A DNA stretch of 59,970 nt, the filler included, from Gonapodya sp. JEL0774 (lineage: Eukaryota): assembly GCA_027604505.1 (NCBI GenBank). It is 9 parts of 9 records of this genome, joined end to end, with 100 filler letters (N's around TTAATTAATTAA, not from the genome) between each part and the next. Parts side by side here need not be neighbours in the genome. Positions count along the whole stretch, not along the records: positions 13,401 to 19,993 come from JADIIX010000576.1; 8 more parts are not named here. One strand, 5' to 3'. Below the pieces are notes generated by a model. The model worked only from the letters and a program-made list of their open reading frames with translations, made no database searches and had not been told where the DNA came from. Shown here piece by piece: positions 1 to 55,726 of this stretch (position 1 is its first letter; every line of letters starts with the position of its first letter). The translations under genes were made by a program, and so were the position numbers.

Positions 1-490
1 AGCGCCACTGATTGCTGGATTGTACTCACCTTCTCCGCTGCTCCGCGGTTCCATCGAGCCCCAACCTTGCGCTGCAGTTTTGCGTGGACAGTGACTTGGT
101 TCCCCTTCGACATCTTGGACTGATCCATCAAACGGGTGGGCGTGATCCGCGTCGGCGAGGAGAAGGGGAGACGGGTACGTCAAGGCGGTGTTGAAGATAG
201 GCAAATGCAGAACATCATGACAGATTTAGAGCACGATACAGAGTTGATGTTCCACGACACACTTATGGGTTAGTTGATCGTGTCCATGAAATCATGTCGC
301 GCGGATGGGTCATTCCATTTATGCTCAGAACGTGGGGGGTGAGGAACGGTCGTATTTGACGAAACCGGGAAGGCATTCAGGATGCGGCTCGTGAAAACCG
401 GGAGGGGTAGAATGGGAAGGATGTGGAGTGTCGCGGTTGTAGTGTTTGGCGGGGACGATGGGCAGGGGAGAGTCGGAGTGGGAGGGGTTG
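1..490. repeat. Diverged direct repeat, copy 1 (copy 2 at 6096-6607)
   Basis: Long near-identical stretches such as gctggattgtactcaccttctc and ggtcattccatttatgctcagaacgtggggggtgagg occur at both ends of contig 1. Copy 1 lacks ~20 nt found in copy 2. Confidence 0.9.
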
Positions 491-2913: not shown

Positions 2914-4717
2914 TCACCTCCCTTGCCCCGATCCTGCTCCAGCCCCTCCTGCTCCAAGCACCTCAGTCTGCACACCTATCCTCCCACTCCCACTGTGGTT
3001 CCCAGTTCCTGCCCCACCACCAGCTCCACCAAACCTCCCAATTGCCTCACCCGCTCCTACACCATACCCACCCCGCACGGGCCACGTTCCTGATGCTAGT
3101 GGTGTTGGCCCCGTCGGGTATGCTGACTGTTGCGGTGGGCCAGCCACGTCGCCGTCGTACTGGGAGGAGAGAGGTGGGGCGTTGGGGACTGGACGGAAGG
3201 GGTTAGAGGGGGGAGGTTGAGGGCCAATGTTGAGGCGGGAGTCGTAACGGAGGGTGAAGGAGAGTGGGTTGAGGGGGAGTTGGGAGGGGGCAGGCGCATC
3301 ACCATTGTCACTGACACAGACCATAGGGAAGGCACCCAAGGAGCTTGTTCTGGTGTTGAGGCCCTAAGTGAAGAGGTAGAAATGCACGGGATTAATGATC
3401 CATGCAGTAGAGATCATAAGACACTAATGACAAATTGTGTGCAGGTTGCAAACAACTTGCACTCACTGATCCCCACCCGTCTGCATACTCTAGGTTCACA
3501 AATATTGCATCACCTACTGTGATATGCAGCTCATCTGTGTCTTGTCCCTCAAAGTCAGAAACGGCATACATGAGGCGATGGACGGTGCGGGCCGGCTGGG
3601 GTTCACGAGGTGAGGAAGCAGGTGGTAGGGATGCGAGTTGGGTGCGAAGGGTCACCACCTCCTGTTCCAATCCTGAGTTTTTTGTGGCGAGGGTGAGAAT
3701 CACTATGGATTGGGTGTGGTTTTCAGTCTGGAGGTCCTCGTTTGCAGCTTCCAAGATTGCGATCCGTGACTGATTGTCCGCATTCTGCCGCTCCACCACC
3801 TCCACCTTACTTTCTGCAGTTGCTGTCCTTACTGATAGCTCCTGAACTTGAGCCATAAGACGATCTACTTCAGCTTGCAGCTCCCTATTTGCCCTGTCCT
3901 TGTCAGCGAGGAGTGAGACGAGGGCTTCAGTGGGTTGAGGAGATGATGAGGGTGCAGGGATAGGGGGAGAAGAAGGTCGAGTGCGGGCAGGGACTGGAGC
4001 GGGAGGGTGGGATTGATGGCCTTGGAGTGTTTCAAAGAAATGTCCATCTGGCCAATTGCGAGCAGCGTCAAGCTCCCTCTGAGTGACCACAGCCCCATGG
4101 GAGAGGAGGAGTTTGACGATGGGGAGGGACGGACGCAGAGTGAAGGGATAGATGAAGGTGTCCTTCCACTCCTTTGGATCTCTGATCTGCACGTCGCCGC
4201 CCTTGAGACTGATCGGGAGTTTGTTGTAAGAGTCGGGTGAATCGAATGTGTCACCGTTCCACCACGTATCCTTCCCGCCCCTCGCCACCGCCAGTGTCAA
4301 TGCAGACGGGAACAAAATCGTCCAACGCCAACGCATCCTGTTCCAATTGTCCGCAGTCCACGATGAAAACGAGTTCGCACGTTTCCACTCACACACCCCG
4401 TTGACATCGGCACCTCCTTCGAGCAACGCCTCGACAACCTCCTCATTCGCATGAAGAATCCCCAAGGCCAATGCAGACTCGCATTCTGCAGAATCCGTTT
4501 TCGTCTCATTCCCGATCCTGCAGGTCAACGTGACCCGCTTCCGCGCGTTGGGGTTCGCCCCATCTGCTAGAAGCTGTCGGACCCGCTGCGCCTGCCCGTT
4601 CTCCACCGCTCCGATCAGTTGGATGTCTCGTGTGTACAACATGGCGTTTTGGCTCGAATTTTCTTGATGTTGACCTGTGTTAGCGTGTTGGTTGTTGCTG
4701 TCACCGGGCGGTGCCAT
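2914..4717 (-). CDS. Ankyrin-repeat / coiled-coil / SH3 protein, 2 exons (4717-3467, 3363-2914)
   Basis: Ankyrin motifs (GAVENGQAQRVRQLLADGANPN; SALALGILHANEEVVEALLEGGADVN) and a heptad-rich segment. The SH3 (MYAVSDFEGQDTDELHITVGDAIFV...DGWGS/GLNTRTSSLGAFPMVCV) is joined in phase 0 across a GTGAGT...TAG intron at 3466-3364. Start codon uncertain. Confidence 0.85.
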
Positions 4718-6095
4718 TCGTTTCTGCACTTTCAAAATACCGCCGCGAGCGACAACGTGGACTTGTAACTTCATTGTTAAATACCTTTTGTACTACGTGC
4801 ATAATACATACATGTCAACTGTCCCCGCTTCCGGGGTCGGTGCTGTTCCACATGCATTACGCGCCACATTCCCAACTCCTCTTCGCCCGCTCACCACATG
4901 CTCTCTCCCCCGACGGGTGCCCATAGCAGAACACTCCAGAATTGGTCATCCCTGGGGATTCCAGCCGCCCTACTGTGCCACTGTCTCCCGCTACCCGCCT
5001 CGACCGTCTGCCTGCCCCCTCCCCCGCTTGTGTCTCCTCCTCCTGACCCTAGTTGCCCCCCCGTTGGCTCCCCAACATCGCCCTTCCCCCGCGCTCTGCC
5101 CCTAACACCCGCCCTGGCCCCCCATCTCGCCCTCCCCCCCCCCCGTTTTCCCCGACCGACCGTTTTCACGCCATCTCATCGCACTCACTCCCCCACCGTA
5201 CAACTCACCTATTTCCCTGTCCGCTGTTCCATATTCCAAGCTTCCATGCTTGTCTCAAGCCCGCCCCGTTCCAGTTGACACGCATCCGTCCGGGTAGAAC
5301 ACGGGTGCCGAAGTCGGGGCTTGTTGACTGTTTCGGCGTAAAAGCCAGCACATTCACCTCCCATAATGGGGGCCTGCCGTTTTGCCTACCACGCTTCCCA
5401 CTGGGTCTTCCCCTCATTGAACCATGAGGATTCGCCATAACACTCGTCATGCACCCTCTCTCAAGTTCTTAGCCGGGGAGTGGTCAGTGGAAGTTGGAGC
5501 AAGTGAAACCGAAAGAATGAAAGCATATTGAAACGTATCACCTAGGGTGGAAATACACCACGCTCGCCGTCGTACTCTCTGTTGGCATATTGTCCGCCGG
5601 TCCTTCCCTCTGGCGACCATCTTCGTCTTTAGCCAGTCGCGGTGCCTGTAAAGTTCATTCTCCCTTCTGGATTCCGTTGTCTTTCTGCGCCTCGCCTCCG
5701 CGTCCCGTTTCCAGGTCTCCTCCATTCGCGGTGCAAACGGGTGGAGTTGATTGAGTGGTACCGGAGGCGACAAAGTTGAGTGGGCTGGAGGAATTCCATT
5801 GCGAATCTCGTGGCGGAACGAGGGGAAGACCCGAGGTGAGGGGGTGGGTGTCTGCCTTTCGTGGCGACGTTTCATGTGAGTGCGAAAGCTGGGGATCAGA
5901 GGACGGAGGTTGGAGTAAGTGAAACCGAGAAAAGGAAAAAAACGTAAACGGAACACCTTGAACGTACACCATGCTTGCCATCCGTTGCTCGCAAGACATC
6001 CCGTCCGCCCCATCGCGCACCGGCATTCTCCCCGCGACCCCGCTCCCCCTTGGCGCTCTCTTCGGGTTCCCACTCCCACATGTCCTCGCACTCGC

Positions 6096-6607
6096 AGCGC
6101 CACCGAATGCTGGATTGTACTCACCTTCTCCCCTGCTCCACGGTTTCAACAAGCGACGACCCTGCGATGCAGCTCTGTGTGGACAGTGACTGGTTCTCCC
6201 TCGACATCTTGGACTGATCCATCAAACGGATGGGCGTGATCAGTGTCGGCGAGGAGAAGGGGAGACAGGTACGTCTTGACTAGGAAAGGAGCGTCAAGGC
6301 GGTGTTGAAGATATGAGCAAATGCAGAACATCATGACAGATTTAGAGCACGATACAGAGTTGACGTTCCACGACACACTTATGGGTTAGTCGATCGTGTC
6401 CATGAAATCATGTCGCGTGGATGGGTCATTCCATTTATGCTCAGAACGTGGGGGGTGAGGAATGGTCGTATTTGACGAAACCGGGAAGGCATTCAGGATG
6501 CGGCTCGTGAAAACCGGGAGGGGTAGAATAGGAAGGATGTGGAGTGTCGCGGTTGTGGTGTTTGGCGGGAACGATGGGCAGCGGAGAGTCGGAGTGGGAG
6601 CGGTGTG
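6096..6607. repeat. Diverged direct repeat, copy 2, ending at the contig end; minus strand looks like a decayed exon (LHILPILPLPVFTSRILNAF, possibly F-box-like)
   Basis: Aligns by eye to 1-490. Both copies have an in-frame stop at the same position and a minus-strand GTGAGT donor near their left end. Confidence 0.85.
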
Positions 6608-13400: not shown

Positions 13401-16400
13401 GCTCGTTCTTGGCTCAGCCGATAGTCATATTGAGCACGTAGTGACTCTTGGGAAGTGAGCATGTTGACTTGTCTGTGGGGAGAACAGTGCAGAAGACACA
13501 AGGAAAATTCCGCCAAGCGACTCAAAGTTAGAAAAGGCCCACAGATGGGAAACGATGCCAAAAAAAAAAAATACAGTCTAACACTCACGCAAGCTGGTGT
13601 GTTTGTGCCTGGGCAATGTAAGTCAATGCAGAGCCCACTGAGGATCCATGCACCCATTGGGCCTTCCTACCGCGGAGTTCATCAAAAATGGCTAAACATT
13701 GCAGTAAATTTGATGTAGGAGATGTAGCGTGGCAATATGTGGGAAACATGCCGTTTGGTGTCCGAGAACGTATCATGAGAAGGACGGGGGTGGGGGGGGA
13801 AGGGAGGAGCACAACGGGCCAANNNNNNNNNNCCCCCGCAGGGAGGAGCACAACGGGCCAATGGACAAAACGCTCAACATGGCTGCAAGCTGAGATAAAA
13901 CAAAAAAAAAATCTCACGGTTCACTCCAAACAGGAGACGGCGAGCAGTTTCCCCTCTGTTAAAATCTCCTCTGTACGTTGCATGCTGCCACCATTCCTCT
14001 GTAATTTTGAACTCCATGGATCTGCGGGCTCTATGGGCAGCCCATCTGGCAGTGGGGTTGTTCTTGTCTGCTCCCATGACCAGCTGCACTGCTGGGTCCA
14101 TGGAACGTGTCCAATTGTACTGATACCACACATATCGCTGACCTGTATGTTCAAACAGTTGCAGTGATGTAGAGGAGTAAAAGGAGGGAAACAGAGCAGT
14201 TTTGTTTTCATGAGGGAGAAAAGCAAAGTTACATTCCATACTTGGTATAATTGCAATATCATTTCATTATGTGTTGAAGAACACGCACCTGTGTCAACAC
14301 TGTCACGATGTGACTACTGCTTCCACGGTCAGGTAGCTGGGGTGTGAAGGGGTGTTGTGATCGGAGAGACATTCACAGATGTGGCACTGTAGTATTTAGC
14401 ACAGGGGCCTGCAGACCTTCCTTACGTTTAGCACCGTGGGTCTGCAGGTGAGTATCTGTCGCTCATTATGTATTCATTCACTCATACATATCGTGGGTCT
14501 GCAGTTGTAGTCTCTGCGTGCTAGTCCTAGGCGGCTGACAGTGTGCTAAACGTCCATTACTGAATTTGGGGAGCCACTCGACTGGACCCCAAACTCAGAT
14601 TGTCACCCATTATCTCAACTTCTCTCTCTCTCTTGCCATCTCTCTTGGGTTGATTGCATCCATTTTGCAATGTCGCAAATCCCTCGTCCTGCCACCTGAT
14701 CCCGATCAACTATGTCTCTAAATATGGCCTCGCTTCCAACCTCATCAGCAGGGCCAGACCCCTCACCTGCAATTGATAGTCCTCTATCCCGGGAATTTCA
14801 TCGATTTCAAACTGAAATGCGCAAAGAAGTGGACGCTTTGAAGTCCATGGTCGCTGATCAGATTTCTGTCATAACCAACTTGCAAGCGGAGCGGGATGAC
14901 CTTCACCAGAGGAACATTGATTTTGACGTGGAAATCCAAGGTCTGAGAGATGCCATCTCCGCACATCAGTCTCTTCCTGCTCGACAGGCTGAGGATTCAC
15001 GGCGAGACCCCATACTTGAAGCGCCTCCCAAGTTCACGGGCGTTGCCACTGCATTACCTATCTGGCGCGGCCTAATGAACAACTTTTTCCGGGCACAACC
15101 TCATCGTTACCCTGATTCTGCAGCTCGGCTTTCATACGCTGCCTCTCGCCTTGACAACACTACTTTCTCATTCTACATGAGTTGGGAAGCAAATGAACTT
15201 CTACATACGTCTTCTCCCACCTGGGAATCCTTTCTTCTTGCGTTATCTTCCCACTATGACGACCCAAACCGGGAAATGAAGGCGCGTTCGGCACTCAACT
15301 CCATTCGGCCAATTGCAAATGAAGATTTTCAATTGTATTTTTTGCGTTTTGAATCTCTACGTCGTGAGGCCCGGGTTCCTGAGGAACTCTTGGTGGTTCC
15401 TTTCCGTCAAGGCTTGCCCCCCGCTATCCACCATGCCTTAGCGGTGGATCTTTCCCTTGCTCCCAATGACTTGGCAGCCAATATCACAAAGGCTCGCCTA
15501 TGCTTTGATCATTTGTCAACTTCTACACCAGTCCCTAAGCCTCCCTCTCCTACTAGGATCTCATATGTGGGAAAATGCAAAGAGCACCCTACCGCCAATC
15601 ATGATGACGCTCACTGTTTCAAGCAGCATCCAGAGCTTCAGAAATCTACTCGTCGTGTTGCAGTGGTGGACGGGGCCCCAGGTGGAACGCAGTCAGCGGG
15701 TTTTCCTTAGGCCCTGGGGTCACTTCTCGCCCGCCCCAGGGCCCACACCCGGCGATGGTGACATCTCACCACCGGGTTGGAGCTAGCAAAAATGGAGTAT
15801 ATACTGGAGTTTCTATAGAGGTTTCGCTAGAAATACACGGAGGTTCCACATCCGTCTATGCAGAGCTTGACTCCGGCTCTTCACTATTTGCTATCATCCA
15901 CCCTCTCTGTGCCCAACGTCTCAACATACCCATCCTTCCTCTCAAATCGCCTCTTCCAGTCCTCCGTGTCAATGACACTCCCATCTCTCCCGTTTCTATC
16001 ACCCATCGGACTTCCAGTCTCCCTTGTCTTATTGCCGGTCGCAAGTGGGAGCCCACTCTCTGGTTCTATGTCATGGACATTGGACAACGGGATGTTCTTA
16101 TCGGATATCCATGGCTGTCGAAGCATGATCCAGTGGTCGGGTGGAAGGATGGTTCAATTATTCCCTGAGCGGACTCAAGCACCCCACAGCTCGGGCCGGA
16201 ACCTTCTTTGCCCACACCAATCGTTTCCCCCATCTCTCATCCGTCCATTCCTCCTCTTCCTGCCGGTGTCCCCGATTGCTATTCTGATTTTGCGGACGTT
16301 TTCCATTTGGAAGCAGCTTCACAACTTCCCCCCTCACGTGGTGTTCATGACTTCCCAATCGAACTGAAGCCTGGCAAGGTTTTCCCTCGCTCTCGAAAGG

Positions 16401-19400
16401 TCTACAAGCTTGCTGCTGATGAGGATAAGCTTTTAGCGGATTTCTTGCGTACTGGGCTGGCAAATGGAACCATCAAACGGTCGAAGTCTGAGTTCGCAAA
16501 CCCAATTTTCTTTGTCCAAGAACCAACGAAAAAGAGGCTCTGTTTTGACCTTCGCGGAAAAAACTCTGTTCTAACTACAGATGCTTATTCTTTGCCTAAT
16601 CTCTCTGAGATGGTGACTGAAATGTCAGGATGTACTTTCAACACAAAGATTGACTTGCGGAAGGCTTACCACCAGATTCGAATTCGTGATTCTGATGTTC
16701 CTAAAACTGCATTCCGGTGCAAATATGGGACCTTTCAAACACGAGTCTTGATGGAGGGTTGGAAGAATGCCGGTGCACACTTCCAGCGATTTGTGGATGA
16801 AATTCTTGCACAGGCAGGGCTCTCTGAGTCTGTGAAGACCTATTTTGATGATAATGGAATCTCTACCAATGGATCCTTGGATGAACACATTTCTGTTGTG
16901 CGGGCCCTCCTGCAAGTGTTCCGGGAGAACAAGCTCTATGTCAATCACTCTAAATGCATCTTCCACGCCAATGAAATTCCTTTTGGGGGTCACATTGTTG
17001 GTTGCAATGGTGTGCGTTTGTCTGAAGATTCAAAAGTGGAAGTGAACTCCTTGCCAGTTCCCACCAGCACAAAAACAGCCCAAATGGTTCTTGGTTGAAT
17101 TCAGTGTTTCCAACGCTGGATACCTCATTATGCTGAGGTAGTTCGACCTCTCCAGGAAGTTTGCAAGCCTTCTGCTCCCTTCTTTTGGGGTGCGGAACAA
17201 ATTGCTGCGTTTGACCACGTCAAGCAGCTTATTTCAACATCTAAAGTGCTTCAACCTGCTGACCCATCCAAGCAATTTATTTGTTACACTGATGCTTCTG
17301 CCTATGGACTAGGGGCTGTTCTCCTTCAAAATGAACCGACGACTTCTTTTCCCCAAGCGGTTGAATTTTGGGGTCGCAAACTCAAATCTGCTGAACGCAA
17401 CTATTCCATTAATGACAAGGAGCTTCTGGCAATTGTGGAAGCTCTAAAACACTGGCGGCATTGGCTCTCTGGTACGGTCTTACCTGTTGATGTTCAGACA
17501 GATCATCGCAATCTACTATACTTCATTACAAAACGATTTCTGTCACCACGCCACGCTTGGTGGGCAGTTGATCTCTCTGAGTATAATATGCATCTTAGCC
17601 ATGTGAGCGGTTCAGCCAATTCTGCTGCTGATGCTCTATCACGGAATCCAGCCTATGTCCCCTCATCTGGTGAAGTGCTTTCAGATCGCGAGCAAGTCCT
17701 GCTACCCCCCACTCTATTCATCCCCCGGCCTCCTTATGCCAGTCGTGTTGCTGCAATTTCTGCTGACTTGGACTCTATTCCCCACACTATTCTTGAAGAT
17801 GAACATAAGCTTGCTATCTGTGAAGTTTTCCATGATCATCCTAGTGCAGGACATCCTTCCTGGGAGAGAACGCTGGCTAAAATTCAGGAAGCAGGGTATT
17901 CTTGGGAGGGAAGGCGTGTATATGTTCGGGATTACTGTCGCTCTTGTGACTCCTGTCAGCGCAACAAGACTGACCATACAAAGCCTTTTGGGCTTCTCCG
18001 TCCTCTTTCGATACCTGCTTAGCCATGGACACACATTTCGATGGACTTTGTCACTGGAATGCCTCCCAGTGAATACCTTGGTGTTACCTAAAATGCCGTT
18101 TTCTGTGTTCGTGAGCGACTCATGGGAATGGCCAGATGGATTCGTTGTGTTGACACTATTACTGCGGAACAGACAGCACAGCTTTTCATAGATGAAGTTT
18201 ATCGCTATTTTGGAATGCCTCTTGACGTAGTCTCTGATCGTGGTCCTCAATTTGCTTCTGCTTTTATGAAAACATTCTGGGAGCTCCTGTGTGTCAAGCC
18301 ATCTCTTTCTACAGCTTGGCATCCACAGTCAAATGGTGGTAATGAACATAGCCACCAGATTATGAACACCATTCTGCGGCACTATGGCAATTATGAGCAG
18401 AACAATTGGGCACAAAATCTCGGAATGGCTGAATTTGCTTACAACAACTCCGTAAACTCCACAACTAAGTTCTCACCATTTTATGCCTATACTTTGAATC
18501 ACCCACTTGCCACTCCTCTCTCAATTCCAAGAGTGGACTCCCCATCTCAAGCAGCAGAACGCACAGTAGAAAGGCTCATGGAGGTTCATAACCAAATGAA
18601 GGAACATATTGCTAACGCTCAAAAGGCTTGGGCAAAATCTGCTGATGCTCACCGCCGTGAGGTTCCATTCAAAGTTGGGGATCTTGTCTGGCTTTGTACT
18701 CGCAACCTCAAATCTTCGCGACCTTCTCGCAAGCTTGACTACACCAAAATTGGGCCTTTCCCTATAACTGCTCAAATTTCCCCTGTTAATTTCCGTTTGA
18801 ATCTTCCCCCCCATTTGCACATTCATCCGGTCTTCCATTCTTCCCTCCTCTCTCCTCACTATGCCAATTCTATTCCTGGGCGCATACCTCCTCCTCCTCC
18901 TCCTATTTCTTTTGCCTCGGAGACTGAAGTGGAGTGCATTCTTGACGTACGCAAGCGTGGTCGGCGCTGGGAGTGGTTAGTTGATTGGAAGGGCTATGGA
19001 ATTGTTGATCGTACTTGGGAACCTTGGCACTCATTCGGTCGTGCAAGGGACGCTGTTCTTGATTTTCACTGCACCAATCTTCTCAAACCAATGCCTCATC
19101 ATATTCGGGTGCTTCCTGACACTGAGGGCGAGGGAAGGAGGAGGTGAAAGGGAGGGGGCACACTGTCACGATGTGACTACCGCGTCCACGGTCAGGTAGC
19201 TGGGGTGTGAAGGGGTGTTGTGATCGGAGAGACATTCGCAGATGTGGCACTGTAGTATTTAGCACAGGGGCCTGCAGACCTTCCTTACATTTAGCACCGT
19301 GGGTCTGCAGGTGAGTATCTGTCGCTCATTATGTATTCATTCACTCATACATATCGTGGGTCTGCAGTTGTAGTCTCTGCGTGCTAGTCCTAGGCGGCTG

Positions 19401-19993
19401 ACAAACACCCCAGATTTCCATGTCTGGACAGTGCTCAAATTGCTCCAGTACAAGCACTGACAGGTTTGTCAAGTCGAAAACAAACCCATGGGAGGTAGAT
19501 GGATCAGGAACAACCTGATACCTGCGACCTTTCCTGTTTGTGTTATGTTCTTGGAGTGCAGGAATGCGTGCTTACAAAGAGTGAACCAAGATTTGTTGTG
19601 GGATGTAAATTTGGTGGGAAAAAGGGAAGGTGAGACAACATGAAACTCACGGGACTTGTAAATGTTCACATTTGAAGCAGATCCTGTCGTGGCATGTAAG
19701 GACACGTCGCAGCCATATCCATCCGTGATGATCTGAAACTTTTCGATATGAATGCCATTTTTATCTGCCAACAGAGAGCAAAACAGTGTAAGCGATCAAC
19801 TCATCCAGCATTGGCTCAACGGTGCAGCTACAAGAACAATGGGAATTTTCTGAAACCAACCTTGAGGAGGAATCTGCCATCGCCCTTTGCTGCAACAGAC
19901 ACCAAAATCTGAAGGTTTCAAAGGCCTTGTAATCCTTACTCCTCGGACCCGTGAGATATCAAAAAGCTGGAAAACCAGCCACATTTTTTGCTC
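13401..19993 (-). CDS. Partial Fanzor1-like (TnpB-family RuvC) nuclease gene with 5 predicted introns, disrupted by the LTR element. Exons 19993-19861, 19764-19576, 19528-19404 + 14295-14289, 14142-13918, 13691-13589, 13472-13401
   Basis: The spliced reconstruction is 854 nt without a stop. Motifs occur in Fanzor1 order: WLVFQLFDISRV, IITDGYG, EIWGVDTGQRY (RuvC-I-like), FKITEEWWQH, GVNPIFDEL, LRAQYDYRLSQERA. Both ends are cut by contig ends. Confidence 0.72.
14301..14540 (+). repeat. 5' LTR
   Basis: tgtcacgatg...gcggctgaca; 4 differences from the 3' LTR counted by eye. Confidence 0.98.
14543..14553 (+). promoter_or_regulatory. Self-priming primer-binding site GTGCTAAACGT
   Basis: Starts 2 nt after the 5' LTR and lacks the TGG start of a tRNA PBS. 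It is the exact reverse complement of ACGTTTAGCAC at 14424-14434 inside the LTR. Confidence 0.8.
14712..15710 (+). CDS. gag: Gag (coiled coil, retrotransposon gag domain, CxxHxxxxHxxxxC knuckle)
   Basis: PPKFTG...FFRAQPHRYPDSAARLSYAASRL, TWESFLLALSSHYDDP and CKEHPTANHDDAHC; intact 332-aa ORF. Confidence 0.92.
   Translation: MSLNMASLPTSSAGPDPSPAIDSPLSREFHRFQTEMRKEVDALKSMVADQISVITNLQAERDDLHQRNIDFDVEIQGLRDAISAHQSLPARQAEDSRRDPILEAPPKFTGVATALPIWRGLMNNFFRAQPHRYPDSAARLSYAASRLDNTTFSFYMSWEANELLHTSSPTWESFLLALSSHYDDPNREMKARSALNSIRPIANEDFQLYFLRFESLRREARVPEELLVVPFRQGLPPAIHHALAVDLSLAPNDLAANITKARLCFDHLSTSTPVPKPPSPTRISYVGKCKEHPTANHDDAHCFKQHPELQKSTRRVAVVDGAPGGTQSAGFP
15698..15761 (+). promoter_or_regulatory. 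-1 programmed ribosomal frameshift signal (G GGT TTT + stem-loop/pseudoknot)
   Basis: In-frame X XXY YYZ heptamer at 15698-15704, a 5-nt spacer, then a perfect 10-bp stem (GGCCCTGGGG 15710-15719 / CCCCAGGGCC 15734-15743). Pol is in the -1 frame and open from the slip site. Confidence 0.85.
15704..19147 (+). pseudogene. pol: Pol (protease, RT, RNase H, integrase, chromodomain), single frame with 4 premature stops
   Basis: AELDSGS; KIDLRKAYHQIRI and TYFDD; YTDASAYGLGAVL; HDHPSAGH...CRSCDSC; VVSDRGPQF; EVECILDVRKRGRRWEWLVDWKGY. Stops at 16166, 17096, 18020 and 18089. Confidence 0.95.
19146..19158 (+). promoter_or_regulatory. Polypurine tract
   Basis: GAAAGGGAGGGGG just upstream of the 3' LTR. 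Confidence 0.9.
19164..19403 (+). repeat. 3' LTR
   Basis: Same 240-bp sequence, preceded by a polypurine tract. Confidence 0.98.
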
Positions 19994-26778: not shown

Positions 26779-28459
26779 CGAGCGATGGCTTCGTCTGCGT
26801 TCATGGTCGTAGAAATTTTGAGCTCGAGTGGGGATTTGGAAAGGTCTGGTACACAGGAGATCAATCAACATGCATTCAAATCTATGGTGTACGATTTTGA
26901 CGGAATAATCAAGCCACTCACCGTCTCCGAAAAAGTGAGCAAACTTGGCTTTCACAGCCGGAATACGGGTACTGCCCCCGATGAGCTCTACGGCGTCAAT
27001 ATCATCTGCGGTCCATCCCGCGTATTGCATGGCCTTCTCCATAGGTGCGAGAACACGGTCAACCAATGGAGCGACAAGAGCTTCAAAATCACCCCTTCAA
27101 AATGCAGGGTGATTAGAGAGAATAAACAGGATTGAAAGAAATTCATTCAGTGCCCGTATTTCAACCATACAAACTCACCTCTCAAGAGGAACAGAAATAT
27201 CTCTGTCATCCACGATACTTTCCACTGACAAAACGGTGTTTGTATTGGCGCTGAGCATCTTCTTGGCCCTCTCGGCGGCCACCCTCAATCGGTACATGGC
27301 CCGCTTGTTGGTCCTTATTTCCAACCCCTTGTACTTCTTCTCGGCGTCCACTGCGGCCTTCTCTGCCAGGGCAAAGTCAAAATCACGACCACCGAGGTTG
27401 CGATCGTAGGCTGAGCCTCGAACACGGAGTTGGCCCTTGACGAACTCGACGCAGCTGGATTGGGTGGAAGAGTGACCAATATCCACGATGACGACACGAC
27501 GGGGTTTTGCGTTGGGTTCAGGAAGGTCGGTTTTGGTGATACCGTAGCCGAGGGCAGCTGGGAAGGGGGTCATAATGGGTTCGTCATAAAAACGTGAGCA
27601 CTCCACGACATATTGAGCATCAAATCCGAATCATGTACGGCAAGTCACCACGTCGAGCGCAATATCCCACAGCGAAAACGACCCGAGCACCAAACCCACA
27701 CTCCTTTGAAGTGAACAGAACTCACCAGCCGTTTCGTCATTCATCAGCCTCAATACATTGAGACCGGCGATTTCGGCAGCATCAAGTAACGCACGCCTTT
27801 GCCGGTCGCCGAACCACCCAGGAACAGACAAGACAACATCTGAGACTACCGCCTTGGTCTCATGTGCGGTAATGGCCTTCACTTTGGTGAAGTACGCAGC
27901 GCAGAGTTGGGTGAAGGTGAACTCGCGTTGCTCGCCGAGGTAGTGGACCTGTGCAGCGGCTTCTCCGGTGGCAGCGTGCTCGACGAGTTGGCAGTTGAGG
28001 TACTTTGCCTCGATATCGCGGACTTCGGGGTCCGAGTAGGGTCGTCCGGCGAGCCGTTTTAGGGTGTGGATGGTGTTGCGGAAGTTGGATATTTCCTAAG
28101 CGCCAAAATGGACACGCGTTGGCACAAAATACGGAGCAATGATATCAATCCGAGAGACAACACTGTCTCATTAGGAGAGAGCTCGCGTTGGTGTGTCCAA
28201 AATGACGACCCTCCTCGTCCGATGACGACCTTGTTCTGAGGTCACCATCCCCATTCACGACCATCTTGCGATCCCGAACCACAATATAACTCACATTACT
28301 CTTCGCTTGTTCCCCCATACTCCGTTGCTTGTGGCCAAACCCGACCATGGATGGCGTGAGCCTGTTTGACGTCTCGTTGGCGATGACATCAATACCACGG
28401 TTTCTGGCGACGGCGATGGCCGTGTTGAGGTTTCCGAAATCAATTCCTACGACAGACAT
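26779..28459 (-). CDS. SSE1: Hsp110/Sse1 (Hsp70 superfamily), multi-exon, 3' truncated
   Basis: [66 protein letters not shown] and [13 protein letters not shown]. Confidence 0.95.
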
Positions 28460-37431: not shown

Positions 37432-39949
37432 TCACTTTTCAATTAACTTGGCCATCCAGTGCTGTTCAAGCTTCAACTCAATCTCAAGTTTGCGCATCGA
37501 CCTATGCAACAATTCGGGCTCAACACCTGCAATTCCAGCACACCGATCCAGGACGAAGAGGTAAGATGAGGGAAGGAACCTTAGAGCAAGGTGCCCTGGA
37601 TAGATTTGATAGTTCGAGCCAGGTGCTATATCTGGTAGCGCTGAGACAAACATGTCATGGAAAAACGGCAAGGCAGTACTGGTGAGAAGTACTGACGATG
37701 AGGGTGTTGTTGGGAAACTCTGATTATCGCTATTGCGGGATCCAGGGAGTAGTTGATTGAATTCCGTGTACGCTTAACGCATTGCAAACAATGTCGGTGT
37801 AAACAAGAGATAGCATTGACCGATGTTTTTCGAATTCAGAATACCTGCGTTCACTTCAGTAGCCATGACATTGTCCGCTAAGAAACGCAAATACTCTGAC
37901 AGATTCCTGTCGACAAACGACTCGAGATCCCTGAGTAGACAGAAGTCGAATGATACCACATGGCGTTTCGCGTGAACTTTTCAAGAGAATCTCACGTTTC
38001 ATCCGGGGGAACGCCAGCTGCATCGAGTTTGCTCTCCCGACCTTCCGTCAAAGCCCACACCCAAGTATGGAACGGACCCATTCGCTCAGAAAGAGAATTA
38101 TTTTGCACATGCCTTTTTTGTGGTATGCAAGGTGAGATGTGGCTTATATTAACCTGATAGAGAACGAACTATTCACCGTCCTTGGTCATCCAAACCGTAC
38201 ACCATCTTGAGCAGTATCGCAAAGGCAGCGAGAAGGGTGACCTCGGGATAACTTCTGCGGTCGACGATAGTGACATGAAAGGATCCATTATAGCCCAGTA
38301 CGTCAAGCAAGCCGCGCAACGGGAGGTAGAATTCGGCTAACGGCGGTAAAATATGTAGAATACCGAGAAATCAACATGTTATCTCAAGAGAAACCATTTG
38401 AGCATGCCTCACGCGGCAAAAGTAAATCCTCCATAATGCGAAAAGTTATGATCGGATAGTTGAGGGGTGGAAACTCGATTCCGTGAGCAGTGTTAAGGCG
38501 GAGGCGCACCGCGGAAGAGCGGAGGTAAAGCTCCTCCACAGATGGTATAGCCTTTCGCACGTGCGAGCAAAATGGTTATCATACTATGATATGGGTAACC
38601 AGGCAGTGCGTACGAACTCACTCGAGGCCTCAAAAAGATATGCGCAGATCCCCAGAGAAGATCACGTAGCCCCGATGGTAGGACGGTATCGATCGCATTA
38701 ACGTACGGGAGTCGACCTGAAGCGATCCATCTAAGGCAGCAGTCGAGGGTCAAGCAGCATAACCGTGAGAACTTCAGAAAAAACCTCGAGACCATCATTC
38801 CTGTCATTTATATTTCCCACCTCTGTAAATCCTTAATCATCACCGGTAGTCGGAGCCAAAGGCATCCCAGATAGCACATCGAGACAGTCAAGGCCAGGTG
38901 CAAGCGGTTGAGCAGTCGGTGTGTCTTCAGGTTAGCTTTCTCTTCACGTTCCGCAAGCTCGGGGGACATTTCGGGCTTCTCTTCCGCCCCCCACATTTTG
39001 TTCTTCCGCCCATCGCCAATTTCATCATCGACTTCGTCATCCGATTCCTTAAGAATAGGATCGTCCAAATCGTCCTGCTCACCCTCCATTCCATCTTCCG
39101 AGCCATCTTCCTCGAATTCCAGGCTTTCATGCTCCTCAGACTGCATTCCTCGCGCTTCATTTGAGGATATCCCCGTTGCTTGAGGGCTGACGTTGATGTA
39201 GAGGAGCCAGAGGTCACGGACGATGGTCTAAATAGAAGAAGTTTCTGAGTGAATACAAATATTTCGAGAATTCGCCGGATACGCGAAACATGCATGCAAA
39301 TCACTGGGCAATCCCATTTTCTCGACGAGAACCTTGAGTTGCGCTTTTAGTATGAGCTGGAGTGCTTCAAGTTGATGGAAGGCGATCTGCCCAGTGCTCA
39401 TGACTAATTACATCGGCAAGAGTGAGAAGCGTGTCAAATCGGCACGATGGACAAAGAGAGTATACGAAAAGTCCGGATTGTAAATTCTCACATGCTTTGT
39501 ATGTCAGCTTTTGCCCCATCCGTCTCTTGACCCCAGTAGGTCGCCGTAGTCTTTGCGAGCCAGAGGGAAGCATTTCTTCACCTGAGAGAATGTAATTCAG
39601 CCAAAAGGGAAAATTTGAAGACAATGAGTGCAGAGATACGATGTGAATCACCTTCTTCCATTCGAAAGTCATCCATCGTTTGGCCGCACATTCTGATCCA
39701 CCGACCGCACACAGTTCCCCGAGAATAAGGGCATCGTGAAAATCATGTGTAGAGGACGGAGGACCCTGTCAGCTCATGTGGAAATGACAGCTAAACGATT
39801 GGAGCTGGGATCGACCCACACCTGCATACAAAAGTCGCCGATGAGGAATCGAAGCGGAAAGATGTGGAGCGGCATTTCAGACATGTTGGGCGGCGAGATT
39901 GAGACTGTGATTGCGACAATGGCCGTGCCGTCTGTGAGGACAAAGACAT
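37432..39949 (-). CDS. RRN7: RNA polymerase I initiation factor Rrn7/TAF1B-like, multi-exon
   Basis: N-terminal zinc-ribbon-like CLKCRSTSF...FVC, LQLILKAQLKVL, and CYLGCLWLRLPVMIKDLQR/WIASGRLPY. 3' end approximate. Confidence 0.75.
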
Positions 39950-47449: not shown

Positions 47450-48647
47450 ATGTCTGGCAAAGTCTATCTGGTTACCGGAGCCGGTCGCGGACTGGGCTTA
47501 GAGTTTGTGAAGCAAATTCTCAACAGGTAAGTCAATGATTTAGATAGATTGACTTTCGTGCAATCTATCATCGGACAGCAGCCATTGATGGAACATCCAT
47601 TCTAACGATTCCCCTCAACGAAAACTCAAAACAGATATGTCGACGCAACTGTTATCGCAACTGTTCGCAGCAAGGCCAAAAGCGCTGCCGCAATCGAGGG
47701 AGTTGCGGGGGGAGCCGCGGCGCGGGTCAAGGTACTTTGAACTGCATTCATTTATGAGGCAACCGTTTTGAGGCTACTCGCTCTTTCTCATTATGCTGCT
47801 TTGCTACATCGCATCAAGATCTTTGAAATGGACTCGGACAACGTGGAGACCATCAAAGTGGGTCTTTGATATCGTCGTTGGTGAAACCGCTTTACTGAGT
47901 CTCACCACCTCTTACACTCACTCAGAGTGCTGCCGCAGCGATCGACAAGGAGTTCCCAGCGGGAATTGATATCTTGATAGTAAGCTCACCGGAGAGCAGT
48001 TTCTACGAAGATTTTCCGCTCTCACGCAGGTATTCAACAACTAGAACAACGCCGGAATTATGTTGAACGATGGAAGCGATATTGATGTGTAATTATCACC
48101 TTTTCCGTTTCTCTGTTCTCACATTTGTGCTTAGTGGCCAATTTCTTCCGCAATCGCAACACACAGCCCCGCTCAAAACCTCGAGTCCTCTTTTCGCACC
48201 AACGTTGTTGGGCCCACCCTGGTCACCCAAAACTTTGTTTCGCAGCTTCGCAAGAAACAAACTCGCACTATCATCAACATCACGTCCATCTTGGGTTCCA
48301 ACACTGTCCCACTTCCCTGGCCAAACATAATCTCTTACCGCGTCAGTAAAGCGGCTCTGAACATGGGTGAGTGATTCACGTACGCAGTCCACGGAAGTTA
48401 TGCTGCTTCCTTTGTCTGACCTGAACTGTCTTTCAAAGCTACTGTCACTCTCGCTCGCACTCTCAAACCTGAAGGCTTTACTGTCGTTCCCCTCCACCCG
48501 GGCTGGGTTCAGACCGAACTCGGTGGGAAGAATGCGCAAATCACCCCAGAAGAGAGTATCTCGGGAATGTTGAAGGTTATCGAGGGGCTCAAGATCGAAG
48601 ACAGTGGGAAGTTTTTGCAACACGACGGAACGGGTCTCCCGTGGTAG
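47450..48647 (+). CDS. Short-chain dehydrogenase/reductase (CsgA/sniffer-like), copy 1
   Basis: VTGAGRGLG, NNAG, TNVVGP, YRVSKAALNM, LHPGWVQT and terminal LPW; about 6 introns. Confidence 0.93.
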
Positions 48648-49225: not shown

Positions 49226-50467
49226 ATGTCTGGCAAGGTTTACGTCATCACGGGAGCTGGCCGCGGCCTGGGTCTCGAATTTGTGAGGCAGATTCTCACC
49301 AAGTGAGTCTGTGATCTGTGGGAGCCGGCTCTTGGCTGGGTCTAGGCTGATGGATGGGTTTCATTCACAATCGGACTTTTGCGCCCACTTGGGGACCAAA
49401 CTCATGGGACCTCCAGATACGATGACGCAACTGTTATTGCAACTGTTCGCAATAAGTCCAAGAGTGTGGCTGCCATCGAGGCAGCCGCAGCAGGAGCAGG
49501 TGATCGCGTTAAGGTGAGCAAGTGAGACATTCGGCACCCGCATTCCTAGAGTCGACGATGAGTTACAAGGCTCTTTCCTTTGGCTTCATTCAATCTATGT
49601 ACTATCTCGCAACAAGATCTTTGAAATGGACTCCGATCACGCGGATACCATCAAGGTGATTAAGCCGATTTAAGTGTATCAAGTAGGCGGGTCTCGCTCT
49701 AACACTCATCCCTCATTCTTGCAAGGCGGCAGCAGCTGCGATCGAGAAAGAGTTTCCGGCTGGAATTGATGTCCTGATTGTAAGACCCACTTGCAAATGT
49801 CGCCTGCCGGCGAGGTCGATGGATGTCCGCTCACTACCTCCTCTGCACCTTAACACCATCAGAACAACGCCGGAATCATTCTCAATGATAGAAGCGATGT
49901 TGAAGTGTGAGTGGAATGGCTGTTGTTCCTCATCTTCACTGAATACGGCTCAATAAGCAAAATCAAACAGTTCCGCCGAAAACCTCGAATCCACATTCCG
50001 CACCAATGTAGTTGGTCCCGCTTTGGTCACCCAGAACTTTATCTCACAACTCCGCAAAAAGCAAACACGGACCATTATCAACATTACCTCCGTACTGGGC
50101 TCAAACACGGTCCCACTGCCGTGGCCTAATATCATCTCGTACCGTGTCAGCAAAGCTGCACTGAATATGGGTGAGCACCTCCTTCCTCGAGTGCACGAGC
50201 TTAGGGTTCTATACCTGCACGTCAGACCGTTGACTAATCCGACCGACATACACCTAAGCGACCACCACTCTCGCTCGTTCACTCCGCCCAGAGGGCTTCA
50301 CCGTCATTCCCATCCACCCTGGCTACGTACAAACGGATATGGGTGGACCCAACGCGCACATTACGCCCTCACAAAGTATCTCCGGGATGTTAAAAGTGAT
50401 GGAGGGACTCACCCTAGAGGATTCGGGAAAGTTCTTGCAGTGGGATGGGACCACCCTTCCGTGGTAG
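49226..50467 (+). CDS. Short-chain dehydrogenase/reductase (CsgA/sniffer-like), copy 2
   Basis: ITGAGRGLG, NNAG, YRVSKAALNM, IHPGYVQTDMGG and LPW; same intron positions as copy 1. Confidence 0.93.
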
Positions 50468-51896
50468 ATAAACATACGGTGATTAATTGAGATTAGTGTC
50501 AAATATTTCGCATGGAACACGGCTGGTATCAATAGAGCACGATTGGCCATCAATTGTTGAACGCGACGCCCGATCCAATTTTATACATAACTTATCACGA
50601 CCTCGGGCGAGACCCGAGGGCACTCCCACTCGTGTTCCTTTATGGTGGCCGAGACTCCACTACACCAACTGCAACACGATCAGTACGTGTCTAAGCGGAC
50701 CTCTCAGGCGCCCTCATCATCCATCTCCACGTTCCCCAAAGAAAGACCAGATTTGATCCTTCGTACCTTCGATCCCTCCTCTCTCTCTACCCGACAGCTC
50801 TTTTTCTCGATTATTTTTGACCCCACTGGTTCGCAGGCGAGGGCGCCACAACTGCTGCGGCAGGCATACGGAGTAGATTGGGACTTCAACGAACAGTTTG
50901 AGTGCACAATTCTAAGAAACGTACTTTTTCTGTTGTTCTCGCTCGCTCTCAGATTTTGGAACCATACTGCAACTCCCCAAACGGACTATGGAACGGAGTT
51001 TTCCAACGCACACTCCATTGGCCGCAGCATTCCCCTTATAAACCCTCACCGTCCCGCGTTTTTCTCTATCGACTGTACTTTCAGGATCTCGTGTACAGTT
51101 GCTATCTAGTCTTTTGGTTCCAAACTACCAAACTAGACACTTTGATCACTCCAGACGATGATATGTGGAGCCAGGGCCAGAGCGGGAAGTGGATTGGTGA
51201 GCCGTGACGTTTCAACCGCCTTCTCGTTTGTCTTACGGCTCCCGGGCCGGATAATGGGCAAGTCGGAGGTGTCGCTGGTTCCCAATCGTTGAAGATCGCG
51301 TCCGTCTGCCTTTGATGTCCTTGGACGTCGGGCGTCGCGACGAGGTCGTTGGCTCGTTCTGATGGAGTGATCAATAGTTATAGATACGGTAGGAATCCCT
51401 CGTCAGAGGAATTAATCTTGAAAATTGAGTGGAAAGATGTCTAGGAATATCATATTGCAGTGCTATTGGACTGTCGGTTACTTTGCACGGTTGAGAGCGG
51501 TTTTTAGATTTTCGAACTTGCCCAAATTCCCGAACTGCCGACCAACAACCCCTGGGAGTCTTGCCAAAATCAAGTATGATATTTTCGCGATATGCCGGAG
51601 TAAAAATTCTTGTATCACCGGCATGTTTCTGATAGCGACGATTGAAACAAACGAGATCGACAAAAGAGTGTATGCTCCCGAGGGGGTACATTCTGGGAGA
51701 ATACCTCGGTAAAACTGTGCCCGTAGCTGAGAACACAAACCGACGTGCTAACCTGAATACATATCTCTCTGTCGGAACCATTTCAAACAACGAAAGGATA
51801 CGTCTTATCACACTCCTGCAACAGACCTCCATCTGTGCTGTTTCTCACCCCTTTACCAAGAGTCATTGTCCTTCTGCGACCGACCGTGCCTCTTGA

Positions 51897-53440: not shown

Positions 53441-53770
53441 CATTATGGCTCCATCAGGACCATTGTTCGGGGTATTGATCGTGATTAACAACTTCTCATC
53501 ACACCGCTCAACACGCTCCAAGATCGCCTTGATTACGAGATGCTGATCAGTGTCAGATATCCATGATTCCCACACCAAAGTCCTGCACGGGTACTTGTAG
53601 TGCGCGAGTGCCCTCGCTGCGATGCTCGCGGGTGTGCGGAAGATGCTGGCCAGGCGTCTGTTGAGGGCACCCGTCGGCAGGCCGAGACGGAAGCGAAAGT
53701 AGTTGGCAATGTGAAGGAGGGTTTCAACCGGCAGGTCCGTGAGGGGAATGGAGGTGCGAGATTGCAGCAT
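53441..53770 (-). CDS. F-box-like/ankyrin family paralog, truncated by contig end
   Basis: N-terminus nearly identical to 54219-55094 (LTDLPVETLLHIANY...DQHLVIKAILERVER). Confidence 0.75.
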
Positions 53771-54218
53771 CGGGGCCAAATGTAAGGCTTTCCGACGGCA
53801 GCGGATGAAATACCGGAAATGAGGACAAAAGGGAAGGAGGACTATGAATGTTGAGAGTGAGCGCTGCGGGCTCTTGGTAATAAAACGAATCGCCCTGTTT
53901 GGGGCTCAGTTGATGTGCGGACGTGTGAGTTCAAACCTGTACTGTTTGAAGTCATTATTATTGACGTGTGTCCCTCAAGCCAAGTCATACATAACGTATT
54001 GCGTGGTTAGGAAATCTCTTCATGTATTTGATGCACTGAAGACTTGTGGACTCTCCAAATATCCCCATGAATCTGAATATGACCCGGTGGACTACCATTG
54101 ACTACCAACAACACTCCAAATTCACGAAAAGGCGGCTCGAGACATAACAGAACTGATGGTAACAAACACAGCTATGGGTATTCGCCGCGGGCTCATTCGG
54201 AGCACATGTATGATGGCT

Positions 54219-55094
54219 TTAACTCCCTGCCGAATGCAATTTCAGTAGGTCAAGAATCTCCGTGAAGCCCCCTGTTCTCGCTTTTGCCATTGCGATCTTT
54301 GCTTGTTCCGATTCTCCCACTGTATCTGCTCCCCGCTTCAACAGCAGCCTCACCACAGCGGCTTTCCCTTCCCTCACTGCAAGCCAAAGCGCCATATTGT
54401 CTAAGAAATGAATGTCTGCTCCGTGGTCCAGCAGCATGGATACCACTTCGACATGACCGCCCAGAGCAGCTGTTTGCAAGGGACCATCCTCGTGAGGGTA
54501 ATGATAATACCCTCGTGAACGTGGGTTCACATTGGCACCCAGCGTCAACAGGAAGCGAACAACATCAGCACGACCACTGCTCGTGCTCTTGTAGAGGAAT
54601 TCATCAAGCCACTCTTCCGTGTCTGCCCCGTTGTCCATCAACAGCTTCACCATCTCGAGGTGGAAGCCTCTGGCTTCACGGACCCGCACAAACAACCGGG
54701 CAAGAGCAAGGTTAGCACCTGCGTTGAGCAGAACTTTTACAGTGGCGGTGTTTCCGGTGCGAGCTGCCGCTACCAGCGGGCTCGCTGTGGATCCGTCAGG
54801 ACAAAAGTATGTGTCATCGATCCTGAACCGCTCGACACGCTCCAAAATCGCCTTGATTACGAGGTGCTGATCAGTGTCAGATATCAATGATTCCCACACC
54901 AAAGTCTTGCTTGGGTTCGTGTAGTGCGCGAGTGCCCTCACTGCGATGCTAGCTGGTGTGCGGAAGATCCTGGCCAGGCGTTTGTTGAGGGCACCCGTCG
55001 GCAAACAGAGACGAAAGCGAAGGTAGTTGGCAATGTGAAGGAGGGTTTCAACCGGCAGGTCCGTGAGGTGAATGGAGGTGCGAGATTGCATCAT
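54219..55094 (-). CDS. F-box-like + ankyrin-repeat protein, 291 aa, intronless
   Basis: LTDLPVETLLHIANYL, then SPLVAAARTGNTATVKVLLNAGA, PLQTAALGGHVEVVSMLLDHGADIH and ALWLAVREGKAAVVRLLLKRGAD. Confidence 0.88.
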   Translation of the reverse strand: MMQSRTSIHLTDLPVETLLHIANYLRFRLCLPTGALNKRLARIFRTPASIAVRALAHYTNPSKTLVWESLISDTDQHLVIKAILERVERFRIDDTYFCPDGSTASPLVAAARTGNTATVKVLLNAGANLALARLFVRVREARGFHLEMVKLLMDNGADTEEWLDEFLYKSTSSGRADVVRFLLTLGANVNPRSRGYYHYPHEDGPLQTAALGGHVEVVSMLLDHGADIHFLDNMALWLAVREGKAAVVRLLLKRGADTVGESEQAKIAMAKARTGGFTEILDLLKLHSAGS

Positions 55095-55726
55095 ATTTGG
55101 GGCCGAACGTCGGTTTCACGAGGGCAGCGGATGAAATATCCGAAATGAGGGTGAAAGGAAAGGAGGACTATGAATGTTGAAAGTGAGCGTTGCGGGCCCG
55201 CTCTTGGTAATAAAACGAATCAGCTGGTTGTTTGTGGCCTTGTGCTTTGGGACTATGTAGTTGTTGAATACAGAGGACCCCAATCTAACTATGGATGGCG
55301 ACCATTGACCGTCAACAATCCGCGCATGGACTATGATTCATGTCCAGCCATTATGTTATTTGAGAATTGAACTTACTCGGATCAATTCTGCTTCACATCA
55401 TTCCCACCTCTTCTGCTCCTCAACGGGCAGTCATTATACCCATTCTCATTTTCCTCGAAGTCAACACTACAGTCACAGGGGACCTGCCCCACCCGCACCG
55501 CGGGTTTCCGAATTACATTACAATATAGTACGAAGCCTTTACTGTGAAGTATTTGGGCTGTGAGGTATGTCGAAGCAATACAAGCTCCATTGCGCCGAGG
55601 AAGAGTCCTGCTCCGTGACCCCGCGATCAAAGGATTATAAAACACGTGTCTTGTATGTAAAGAAGTTCCCGCCGGGGCGAACAATTGGGGGTGATGGATG
55701 ATGCAGATGCCGAGATGTCTCCCTCA

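What the first reader, a model, noticed from the sequence alone, without database searches (positions are those of the whole stretch)
13401..19993. Hidden intron-containing Fanzor1-like (eukaryotic TnpB) RNA-guided nuclease gene split by an LTR retrotransposon
Seen: I removed the LTR element plus one TSD copy and five minus-strand GT-AG introns (19860-19765, 19575-19529, 14288-14143, 13917-13692, 13588-13473). Every junction is phase-compatible and the result is ~284 stop-free codons: EQKMWLVFQLFDISRVRG...PPQ/DKNGIHIEKFQIITDGYGCDVSLH...WFTL/CRRYQVVPDPSTSHGFVFDLTNLSVLVLEQFEHCPDMEIWGV^DT/GQRYVWYQYNW...SMEFKITEEWWQHATYRGDFNRGETARRLLFGVN/PIFDELRGRKAQWVHGSSVGSALTYIAQAQTHQLA/QVNMLTSQESLRAQYDYRLSQERA. 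Knowledge (consensus recalled, not searched): fungal Fanzor1 proteins show the order W..lFd, I.TDGY, (W)GvDPG (RuvC-I), S.xEYYH, GI..IE, Y...Qra; Fanzors occur in chytrids and can carry introns. Inference: this is a divergent Fanzor1 (DTG instead of DPG, EEWWQH instead of EYYH) that ORF-based mining would miss. RuvC-II/III, the zinc finger and the omegaRNA would lie beyond the contig end at 13401. The 47-nt second intron with an AAG acceptor is the weakest junction.
Basis: partly seen in the sequence, partly recalled or inferred. Interest (0 to 1): 0.9.

Follow-up and report, generated by a model that had tools for sequence, protein, structure and literature searches.

The report
Dead Fanzor1-like fragment split by retrotransposon
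A retrotransposon has jumped into what is likely the catalytic motif of an intron-containing, very divergent Fanzor1-type (eukaryotic RNA-guided nuclease) gene, leaving a broken middle piece of a gene family already known to carry introns and such insertions.

Summary
Likely a dead, divergent Fanzor1 fragment; a known kind of relic. With the element removed, the minus strand matches Fanzor1 profiles built here: W..LFD, TDG and WGVDTG fall in order. Splice-aware scores are 28-36 against 14-16 for shuffles and top all 216 window tiles (per-tile p 6e-4 to 6e-5); a TnpB/Fanzor2 profile does not match. Support is modest and confined to the 5' half. No exon is significant alone, and exons 4-6 score near chance, where true fungal Fanzor1 loci gain about 60-80 bits. 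The flanks are CpG-poor like a methylated repeat. Catalytic Glu, zinc finger, last Asp, omegaRNA and element ends lie off the contig and are untested. Intron-bearing Fanzors and Ty3 insertions into Fanzor genes are published, and this scan noted similar relics on other DNA.

The parts
19940..19993 (-). First visible coding stretch, cut by the contig end; W..LFD motif that precedes TDG in Fanzor1
   Evidence: Block placed here without splice assumptions, 7.4-7.9 bits
19874..19939 (-).
   Evidence: Donor rank 4 of 88, acceptor rank 37 of 75; shortens LF-to-TDG from 48 to 26 residues and raises HMM scores by 0.3-1.2 bits; uncertain
19765..19860 (-). Intron 1 (96 nt, in frame, holds a TGA); weak donor, good acceptor
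   Evidence: ranks 15 of 88 and 5 of 75
19651..19764 (-). Exon with the TDG motif (19726-19718), the strand before RuvC-I in Fanzor1
   Evidence: 17-18 bits block score; alone E 0.02 against A4; codons checked
19457..19650 (-).
   Evidence: Chosen by the splice-aware aligner with the euk profile; TDG-to-Asp spacing 42 against family median 41 of 63 sequences; donor rank 1 of 88; not shown by RNA
19404..19456 (-). Exon part up to W-G-V of the RuvC-I-like motif, including one copy of the 5-bp target duplication (19404-19408)
14301..19403 (+). Ty3/chromovirus LTR retrotransposon, opposite in orientation to the gene, inserted between the Val and Asp codons of the RuvC-I-like motif
   Evidence: Pfam gag, RT, RNase H, integrase zinc finger, SH3, chromo; LTRs and duplication
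14301..14540 (+). 5' LTR (240 bp)
14543..14553 (+). Primer-binding site complementary to 5' LTR 14424-14434 (Tf1-type self-priming layout)
   Evidence: 11 of 11 pairs; mechanism as described in PMC4600332 (passages)
14700..15710 (+). gag frame, ending after a slippery heptamer (15698-15704) and beside an 11-bp hairpin (15710-15743)
   Evidence: Retrotrans_gag E 2.3e-07; hairpin -24.3 kcal/mol
15608..19147 (+). pol frame (protease, RT, RNase H, integrase, chromodomain), broken by 4 in-frame stops
19164..19403 (+). 3' LTR (240 bp), preceded by a purine-rich tract
14289..14295 (-). 7-nt exon remainder with the predicted RuvC-I Asp codon (14295-14293) followed by Thr
   Evidence: aligns to the DPG column
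14143..14288 (-). Intron 3 (146 nt)
   Evidence: RuvC-I block 18.1 bits spliced against 9.2 unspliced; chosen by the aligner with the euk profile, while the fun profile chose acceptor 14092
13918..14142 (-). Exon 4 (225 nt): strand after the Asp, then a stretch weakly like the fungal Fanzor1 AaDg..hRiR..EYY region (TEEWW at 14002-13988)
   Evidence: Weak: 18.8 with the fun profile, reached by 1 of 200 shuffles and 6 of 130 tiles; E 0.047 against A3; E 0.78 against A4
13692..13917 (-).
   Evidence: no homology support
13589..13691 (-).
   Evidence: Open frame only; chance-level profile scores
13473..13588 (-). Intron 5 (116 nt), strong splice sites
   Evidence: Donor rank 2 of 88, acceptor rank 2 of 75
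13401..13472 (-).
   Evidence: Open frame only; chance-level profile scores

Best explanation
The contig holds a likely middle piece (end of WED, RuvC-I and the following insertion) of a divergent, intron-rich Fanzor1 gene, and a Ty3/chromovirus retrotransposon sits between the Val and Asp codons of its predicted first catalytic motif, so this copy would be dead. How it works: shown are the insertion, its 5-bp duplication and the ordered motif match once the element is removed. Inferred from the family: the intact parent was a passenger of a eukaryotic DNA transposon, was spliced, bound an omegaRNA made from the element's 3' end and cut DNA beside a short TAM with an Asp-Glu-Asp site. Inferred from CpG loss: the gene was already a methylated repeat before the young retroelement landed in it.
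For: Reference profiles are real Fanzor1: A1, A3 and A4 hit SpuFz1 at E 3.5e-27, 1.2e-10 and 2.6e-47. Splice-free block chain: 48.7 and 56.8 against shuffle means 29.1 and 27.6, 0 of 150 shuffles and 0 of 142 tiles reaching it, though one tile came to 47.1. Splice-aware alignment: 29.9 (euk), 28.0 (comb), 36.4 (fun), 0 of 200, 200 and 150 shuffles, top of 216 tiles, Gumbel p per tile 2.9e-4, 6.4e-4, 6.3e-5. 5' half alone 26.0 against 11.9 +/- 1.8, close to the 27-41 of 8 true fungal Fanzor1 loci. The match needs both flanks: 20.1 right only, 16.0 left only, 21.3 with the element in place, 29.9 excised. The nr profile, built without window input, gives hhalign 33.2 against at most 21.3 in 60 shuffles and HMMER E 1.2e-4 for one comparison. 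TnpB/Fanzor2 profile: 16.0, reached by 23 of 150 shuffles. CpG observed/expected is 0.47-0.51 in the flanks against a mean of 0.97 (minimum 0.58) in 32 tiles elsewhere, while the LTRs differ by only 1.7%.
Against: No exon is significant alone: nothing in Pfam, NCBIfam, PHROGs or PDB, E 0.02-0.78 against A4 and 0.047-0.34 against A3. No relative was found among 1.84 billion representatives (2 hits, both repeat proteins), 110 word candidates, or viral and metagenome contigs. Best HMMER scores are only 5-11 bits, which would not pass a library-wide search. Downstream of RuvC-I the match is near chance (comb 5 of 200, euk 44 of 200 shuffles), whereas true fungal Fanzor1 loci score 88-116 on the full profile. 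The residue after the Asp is Pro in 50 of 51 family sequences counted, never Thr. The fun and comb profiles are biased towards WG[VI]DPG..EYY by my search pattern, and the euk set came partly from a search whose alignment held window exons.
Confidence: 0.75

Rival explanations
1. The flanks are some other decayed repeat or transposon gene, and TDG and GVDTG line up with Fanzor1 by chance plus free choice of splice sites.
For: Window-corrected p only 0.005-0.05; downstream half unmatched; 10 of 56 acceptor triples are stop-free and strong donors are not enriched; the plus strand reaches 22.6 with the same profile; CpG loss shows a repeat, not which kind.
Against: Three motifs in the family's order and spacing, in frame exactly across the target duplication, with profiles of different origin agreeing; no other family was hit.
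Confidence: 0.13
2. It is a domesticated or catalytically changed Fanzor1-derived host gene whose RuvC insertion has been remodelled, knocked out only in this strain or haplotype.
For: Open exon frames with canonical splice sites; D-T-G in place of D-P-G; downstream half unlike known Fanzor1; no other copy seen in the 60-kb window.
Against: CpG depletion to about 0.5, unlike other contigs of the window, points to a silenced repeat; copy number and neighbours cannot be seen on a 6.6-kb contig.
Confidence: 0.08
3. It derives from TnpB or Fanzor2 (IS607 type) and not from Fanzor1.
For: GVDTG also resembles the generic RuvC-I strand (one search aligns it weakly, E 0.04-0.17).
Against: A 38-sequence TnpB/Fanzor2 profile scores 16.0, at shuffle level; 0 of those 38 hold TDG.
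Confidence: 0.02

Closest known systems
Fanzor1, e.g. SpuFz1 of Spizellomyces punctatus (PDB 8GKH; PMC10432273), PpFz1 (9CF0), GtFz1 (9CER)
   Same: Order W..F, TDG, then a hydrophobic strand ending in Asp and a following strand; the profiles that match the window hit these structures. The Asp column is SpuFz1 D383 by my count with a recalled protein length. Saito et al. report Gypsy/Ty3 inserted in Fz genes (passage).
   Different: SpuFz1 is a single ORF; this gene has 5-6 introns in about 1.5 kb. D-T-G instead of D-P-N/G. No direct sequence hit to any solved Fanzor. Downstream half not alignable.
Fungal-type Fanzor1 loci from JGI metagenome contigs (L218-L243, WG[VI]DPG...EYY type)
   Same: Trp before the RuvC-I Gly, TDG about 35-45 residues upstream, an intron shortly before TDG in 5 of 6 loci traced, and a weak AD..hR.R..E-aromatic-aromatic echo in exon 4.
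   Different: Intron positions differ; no tblastn hit better than E 0.47; the window has about 20 extra residues between the Asp and the EYY-like motif.
Multi-exon Fanzor1 of Chlamydomonas Helitron2 elements (CRe-1, 2, 3; CrFNuc)
   Same: Spliceosomal introns in a Fanzor1 gene: 5 and 10 exons (PMC3627910 passage); up to about 9.6 introns per kb (PMC10530073 passage).
   Different: No sequence comparison was made; the host transposon here is unknown.
Tf1/Tf2-type chromoviruses (Ty3/Gypsy)
   Same: gag-pol with chromodomain and Tf2-type SH3, 5-bp duplication, self-priming PBS layout.
   Different: This copy has 4 stops in pol; no tree was built, so the clade is not placed.

Membership tests
Fanzor1 | TDG strand followed by the RuvC-I Asp at family spacing | tested here: met
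   Spacing 42 under the revised intron, family median 41, range 32-106, n 63; joint scores above all shuffles and tiles; modest strength
Fanzor1 | RuvC-I motif D-P-G/N | tested here: inconclusive
   Asp and Gly present (the two invariant columns of A4); Thr replaces Pro, seen in 0 of 51 counted sequences (50 Pro, 1 Ser)
Fanzor1 | Helical RuvC insertion after RuvC-I (S..EYY, P..KT, F..Y...Q) | tested here: inconclusive
   Weak with the fungal profile, chance with two others; single-sequence model of exon 4 uninformative (pLDDT 53)
Fanzor1 | Rearranged catalytic Glu six residues before a C4 zinc finger, then RD (PMC3627910, PMC13565253) | not testable with these tools
   Would lie beyond the contig end at 13401; no genome held
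Fanzor1 | omegaRNA at the 3' end of the element | not testable with these tools
   Off the contig; Rfam gave 0 matches on 13401-19993, which says nothing on this
Fanzor1 | Carried by a eukaryotic DNA transposon, in several copies | tested here: inconclusive
   No ends or transposase on the contig; CpG depletion fits a repeat; no second copy found
Fanzor1 | RNA-guided DNA cleavage | not testable with these tools
   Needs an intact copy and an assay; this copy is interrupted
TnpB / Fanzor2 | Match to a TnpB/Fanzor2 WED-RuvC-I profile | tested here: not met
   16.0, reached by 23 of 150 shuffles; HMMER below 0 bits
Ty3/Gypsy chromovirus | LTRs with TG..CA, 5-bp duplication, order gag-PR-RT-RH-IN and a chromodomain | tested here: met
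   the protease (E 0.007) and integrase core (E 0.0008) hits are below Pfam's cut-offs, the other domains pass

The most novel reading that the evidence does not exclude
The fragment belongs to an unsampled Fanzor1 lineage with a D-T-G RuvC-I motif, a remodelled RNA-binding insertion and one of the highest intron densities, invisible to ORF-based mining, with intact and active sister copies elsewhere in this genome.
Probability: 0.2. Interest if true: 0.55.

Novelty: new member of a known kind. Interest (0 to 1): 0.25.

Why it matters
Little on its own: it is a broken, truncated copy of a known family, and both of its striking features are in print. Its value is as a bait. If sister copies are intact, they would add a far-diverged, heavily spliced Fanzor1 that sequence catalogues searched here do not hold, and would show how much of the family ORF-based mining misses.

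Tried and rejected
No whole genome is held. No sequencing run was listed, so splicing and expression were not tested; this is no evidence either way. The ESM Atlas gave no answer. Exon-only searches found nothing real; this is weak, since the query still held intron sequence and a true fungal Fanzor1 lacking its C-terminus (L240) is also missed by NCBIfam and has no transposase hit in PHROGs. P0002 and P0003 were rejected as repeat artefacts. Viral pattern scans gave no Fanzor. A profile of 58 giant-virus Fanzor1 ORFs matched only TDG (-4 bits). AlphaFold of exon 4 alone was too poor for a fold search; the spliced product was not folded or sent to remote searches. Enrichment of strong donors was tested as proof of a spliced gene and failed. 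A KRHVSHILP stretch inside intron 4 resembles the family (8.6-8.8 bits) but is at chance level for about 1000 positions. A literature search for Fanzor + pseudogene + LTR retrotransposon found 0 papers, but the insertion type is in PMC10432273. Supplements were not opened; the Fanzor catalogues there may already list this lineage.
Full report
Setting. The window is a join of nine contigs of about 6.6 kb, separated by N-linkers. The finding fills one contig, 13401-19993. No genome is held and no sequencing run was listed, so only this copy could be read.

The retroelement. It spans 14301-19403 on the plus strand. The LTRs are 240 bp, end in TG..CA, differ at 4 sites and are flanked by an AACAC duplication. 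Pfam finds gag, reverse transcriptase, RNase H, integrase zinc finger, Tf2-type SH3 and chromodomain above cut-off, and protease and integrase core below it: a Ty3 chromovirus. pol carries 4 in-frame stops. The insertion is young (1.7% LTR difference). On the minus strand it lies between the Val and Asp codons of W-G-V-D-T-G.

All five introns have GT..AG ends and the joined frame has 284 codons and no stop. That alone proves little: 10 of 56 acceptor triples downstream are also stop-free, and strong donors are no more common than on the plus strand (6 against 8; 45 of 1000 shuffles reach 6). No single exon hits Pfam, NCBIfam, PHROGs, PDB, the 5.8-billion or 1.84-billion protein sets, or viral and metagenome contigs.

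Building references. I collected Fanzor1 proteins with motif scans and homologue searches. Profiles: nr (33 of 188 hits kept at under 70% identity; no window input), euk (32 diverse proteins picked by hand), fun (13 of the 15 metagenome ORFs that hit euk, out of 27 loci; 2 near-duplicates dropped) and comb (those 13 plus 25 of the 32 euk proteins). Tool-made alignments of these sets hit SpuFz1 at E 3.5e-27, 1.2e-10 and 2.6e-47. Two biases: fun and comb were selected on WG[VI]DPG..EYY, and the search held window exons as rows.

Test 1, no splicing assumed. Seven ungapped blocks were chained in order on the excised minus strand. Scores were 48.7 (euk) and 56.8 (comb) against shuffle means of 29.1 and 27.6; 0 of 150 shuffles and 0 of 142 window tiles reached them, though one tile scored 47.1 with euk.

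Test 2, splice-aware alignment (my own aligner). Scores were 29.9, 28.0 and 36.4 for euk, comb and fun, against shuffle means of 14.0, 14.2 and 15.5, with none reaching them. All three top 216 tiles; fitted p per tile is 2.9e-4, 6.4e-4 and 6.3e-5, or 0.02, 0.05 and 0.005 for the window. The score needs both flanks joined (20.1 and 16.0 apart, 21.3 unexcised). A 38-sequence TnpB/Fanzor2 profile scores 16.0, reached by 23 of 150 shuffles. The 5' half scores 26.0 against 11.9 +/- 1.8, just under the 27-41 of 8 true fungal Fanzor1 loci. The 3' half is the weak point: 18.8 with fun (1 of 200 shuffles, 6 of 130 tiles), 15.2 with comb (5 of 200, 16 of 130), 12.9 with euk (44 of 200, 51 of 130), while true loci reach 88-116 on the whole profile.

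Revising the model. A GTGAGT..CAG intron at 19650-19457 has the right phase, brings the TDG-to-Asp distance from 91 to 42 (family median 41, n 63) and raises all four HMM scores, for example euk from 6.0 to 10.3 bits and the hhalign E from 2.8e-4 to 2.9e-5. This was chosen after seeing the profiles, so it is a better fit and not an independent test. Intron 14288-14143 is supported by the strand it restores after the Asp (9.2 to 18.1 bits). An extra 66-nt intron at 19939-19874 is possible. Introns 4 and 5 rest on splice signals only.

Independent clue. CpG observed/expected is 0.51 and 0.47 in the two flanks and 0.62 in the element, against a mean of 0.97 and a minimum of 0.58 in 32 tiles of the other contigs. 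Since the element is young, I infer that the flanks lost CpG as a methylated repeat before it arrived. This fits a transposon passenger better than a host gene, but does not name the family.

Mechanism. Shown: a retroelement interrupts the predicted RuvC-I motif. Inferred: the parent gene was a spliced Fanzor1 on a DNA transposon, guided by an RNA from the element's 3' end, with a site like D383, N385, E541 and D606 of SpuFz1 (PMC10432273, passages). The Glu, zinc finger, last Asp, omegaRNA, N-terminus and element ends are all off the contig.

What is known. Fanzor genes with introns, up to about 9.6 per kb (PMC10530073, passages), multi-exon Fanzor1 in Chlamydomonas (PMC3627910, passages), Fz1 widespread in fungi and Gypsy/Ty3 inserted in Fz genes (PMC10432273, passages), and the position of the catalytic Glu (PMC13565253, passages). 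I saw passages only and no supplements. Paper searches. This scan holds eight earlier notes on spliced or dead fungal Fanzor genes in at least four other genomes (unchecked) and none on look-alike DNA or this genome. The motifs used for my pattern scans were recalled.

Verdict. A likely dead, divergent Fanzor1 fragment (0.75), a new member of a known kind, interest 0.25. The one open upside is an unsampled lineage with intact sister copies (0.2).

Noticed in passing
window 14543-14553 and 14424-14434: The retroelement's primer-binding site is the exact complement of 11 bases inside its 5' LTR (Tf1-type self-priming); one of the 4 LTR differences breaks the match in the 3' LTR copy.
   Followed up: partly
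window 15698-15743: Slippery heptamer in the gag frame followed after 5 bases by an 11-bp hairpin (-24.3 kcal/mol), with pol in the -1 frame: a likely programmed -1 frameshift signal.
   Followed up: partly
window 15608-19147: pol has 4 in-frame stops although the LTRs differ by only 1.7%; the element may have been copied in trans from an already defective template (inference).
   Followed up: no
window 13795-13870: The 10-N gap is flanked by a duplicated stretch of about 20 bases, which looks like an unresolved assembly overlap or two alleles or copies.
   Followed up: no
window 1-488 and 6096-6604: Direct repeats 82-97% alike about 6.1 kb apart on the first contig, around an ankyrin/coiled-coil/SH3 frame at 3395-4792; no TG..CA ends checked out.
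   Followed up: no
window 53503-53871 and 54827-55197: Tandem duplication with a period of about 1.3 kb in an F-box-like plus ankyrin gene region.
   Followed up: no
window 47632-48090 and 49414-49908: Diverged tandem duplicate (75-84% alike, about 1.8 kb apart) next to a short-chain dehydrogenase frame at 49957-50487.
   Followed up: no
window 27178-28095 and 38811-39227: Hsp70 frame with an in-frame stop between two matching halves, and an Rrn7/TAF1B cyclin domain, which shows a eukaryotic host.
   Followed up: no
L223, L224, L238, L242, L243: Fungal-type Fanzor1 genes on metagenome contigs with a short GT-AG intron just before TDG; 4 of the 5 share position and phase 2. Several have an open RuvC, zinc finger and RD region.
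   Followed up: partly
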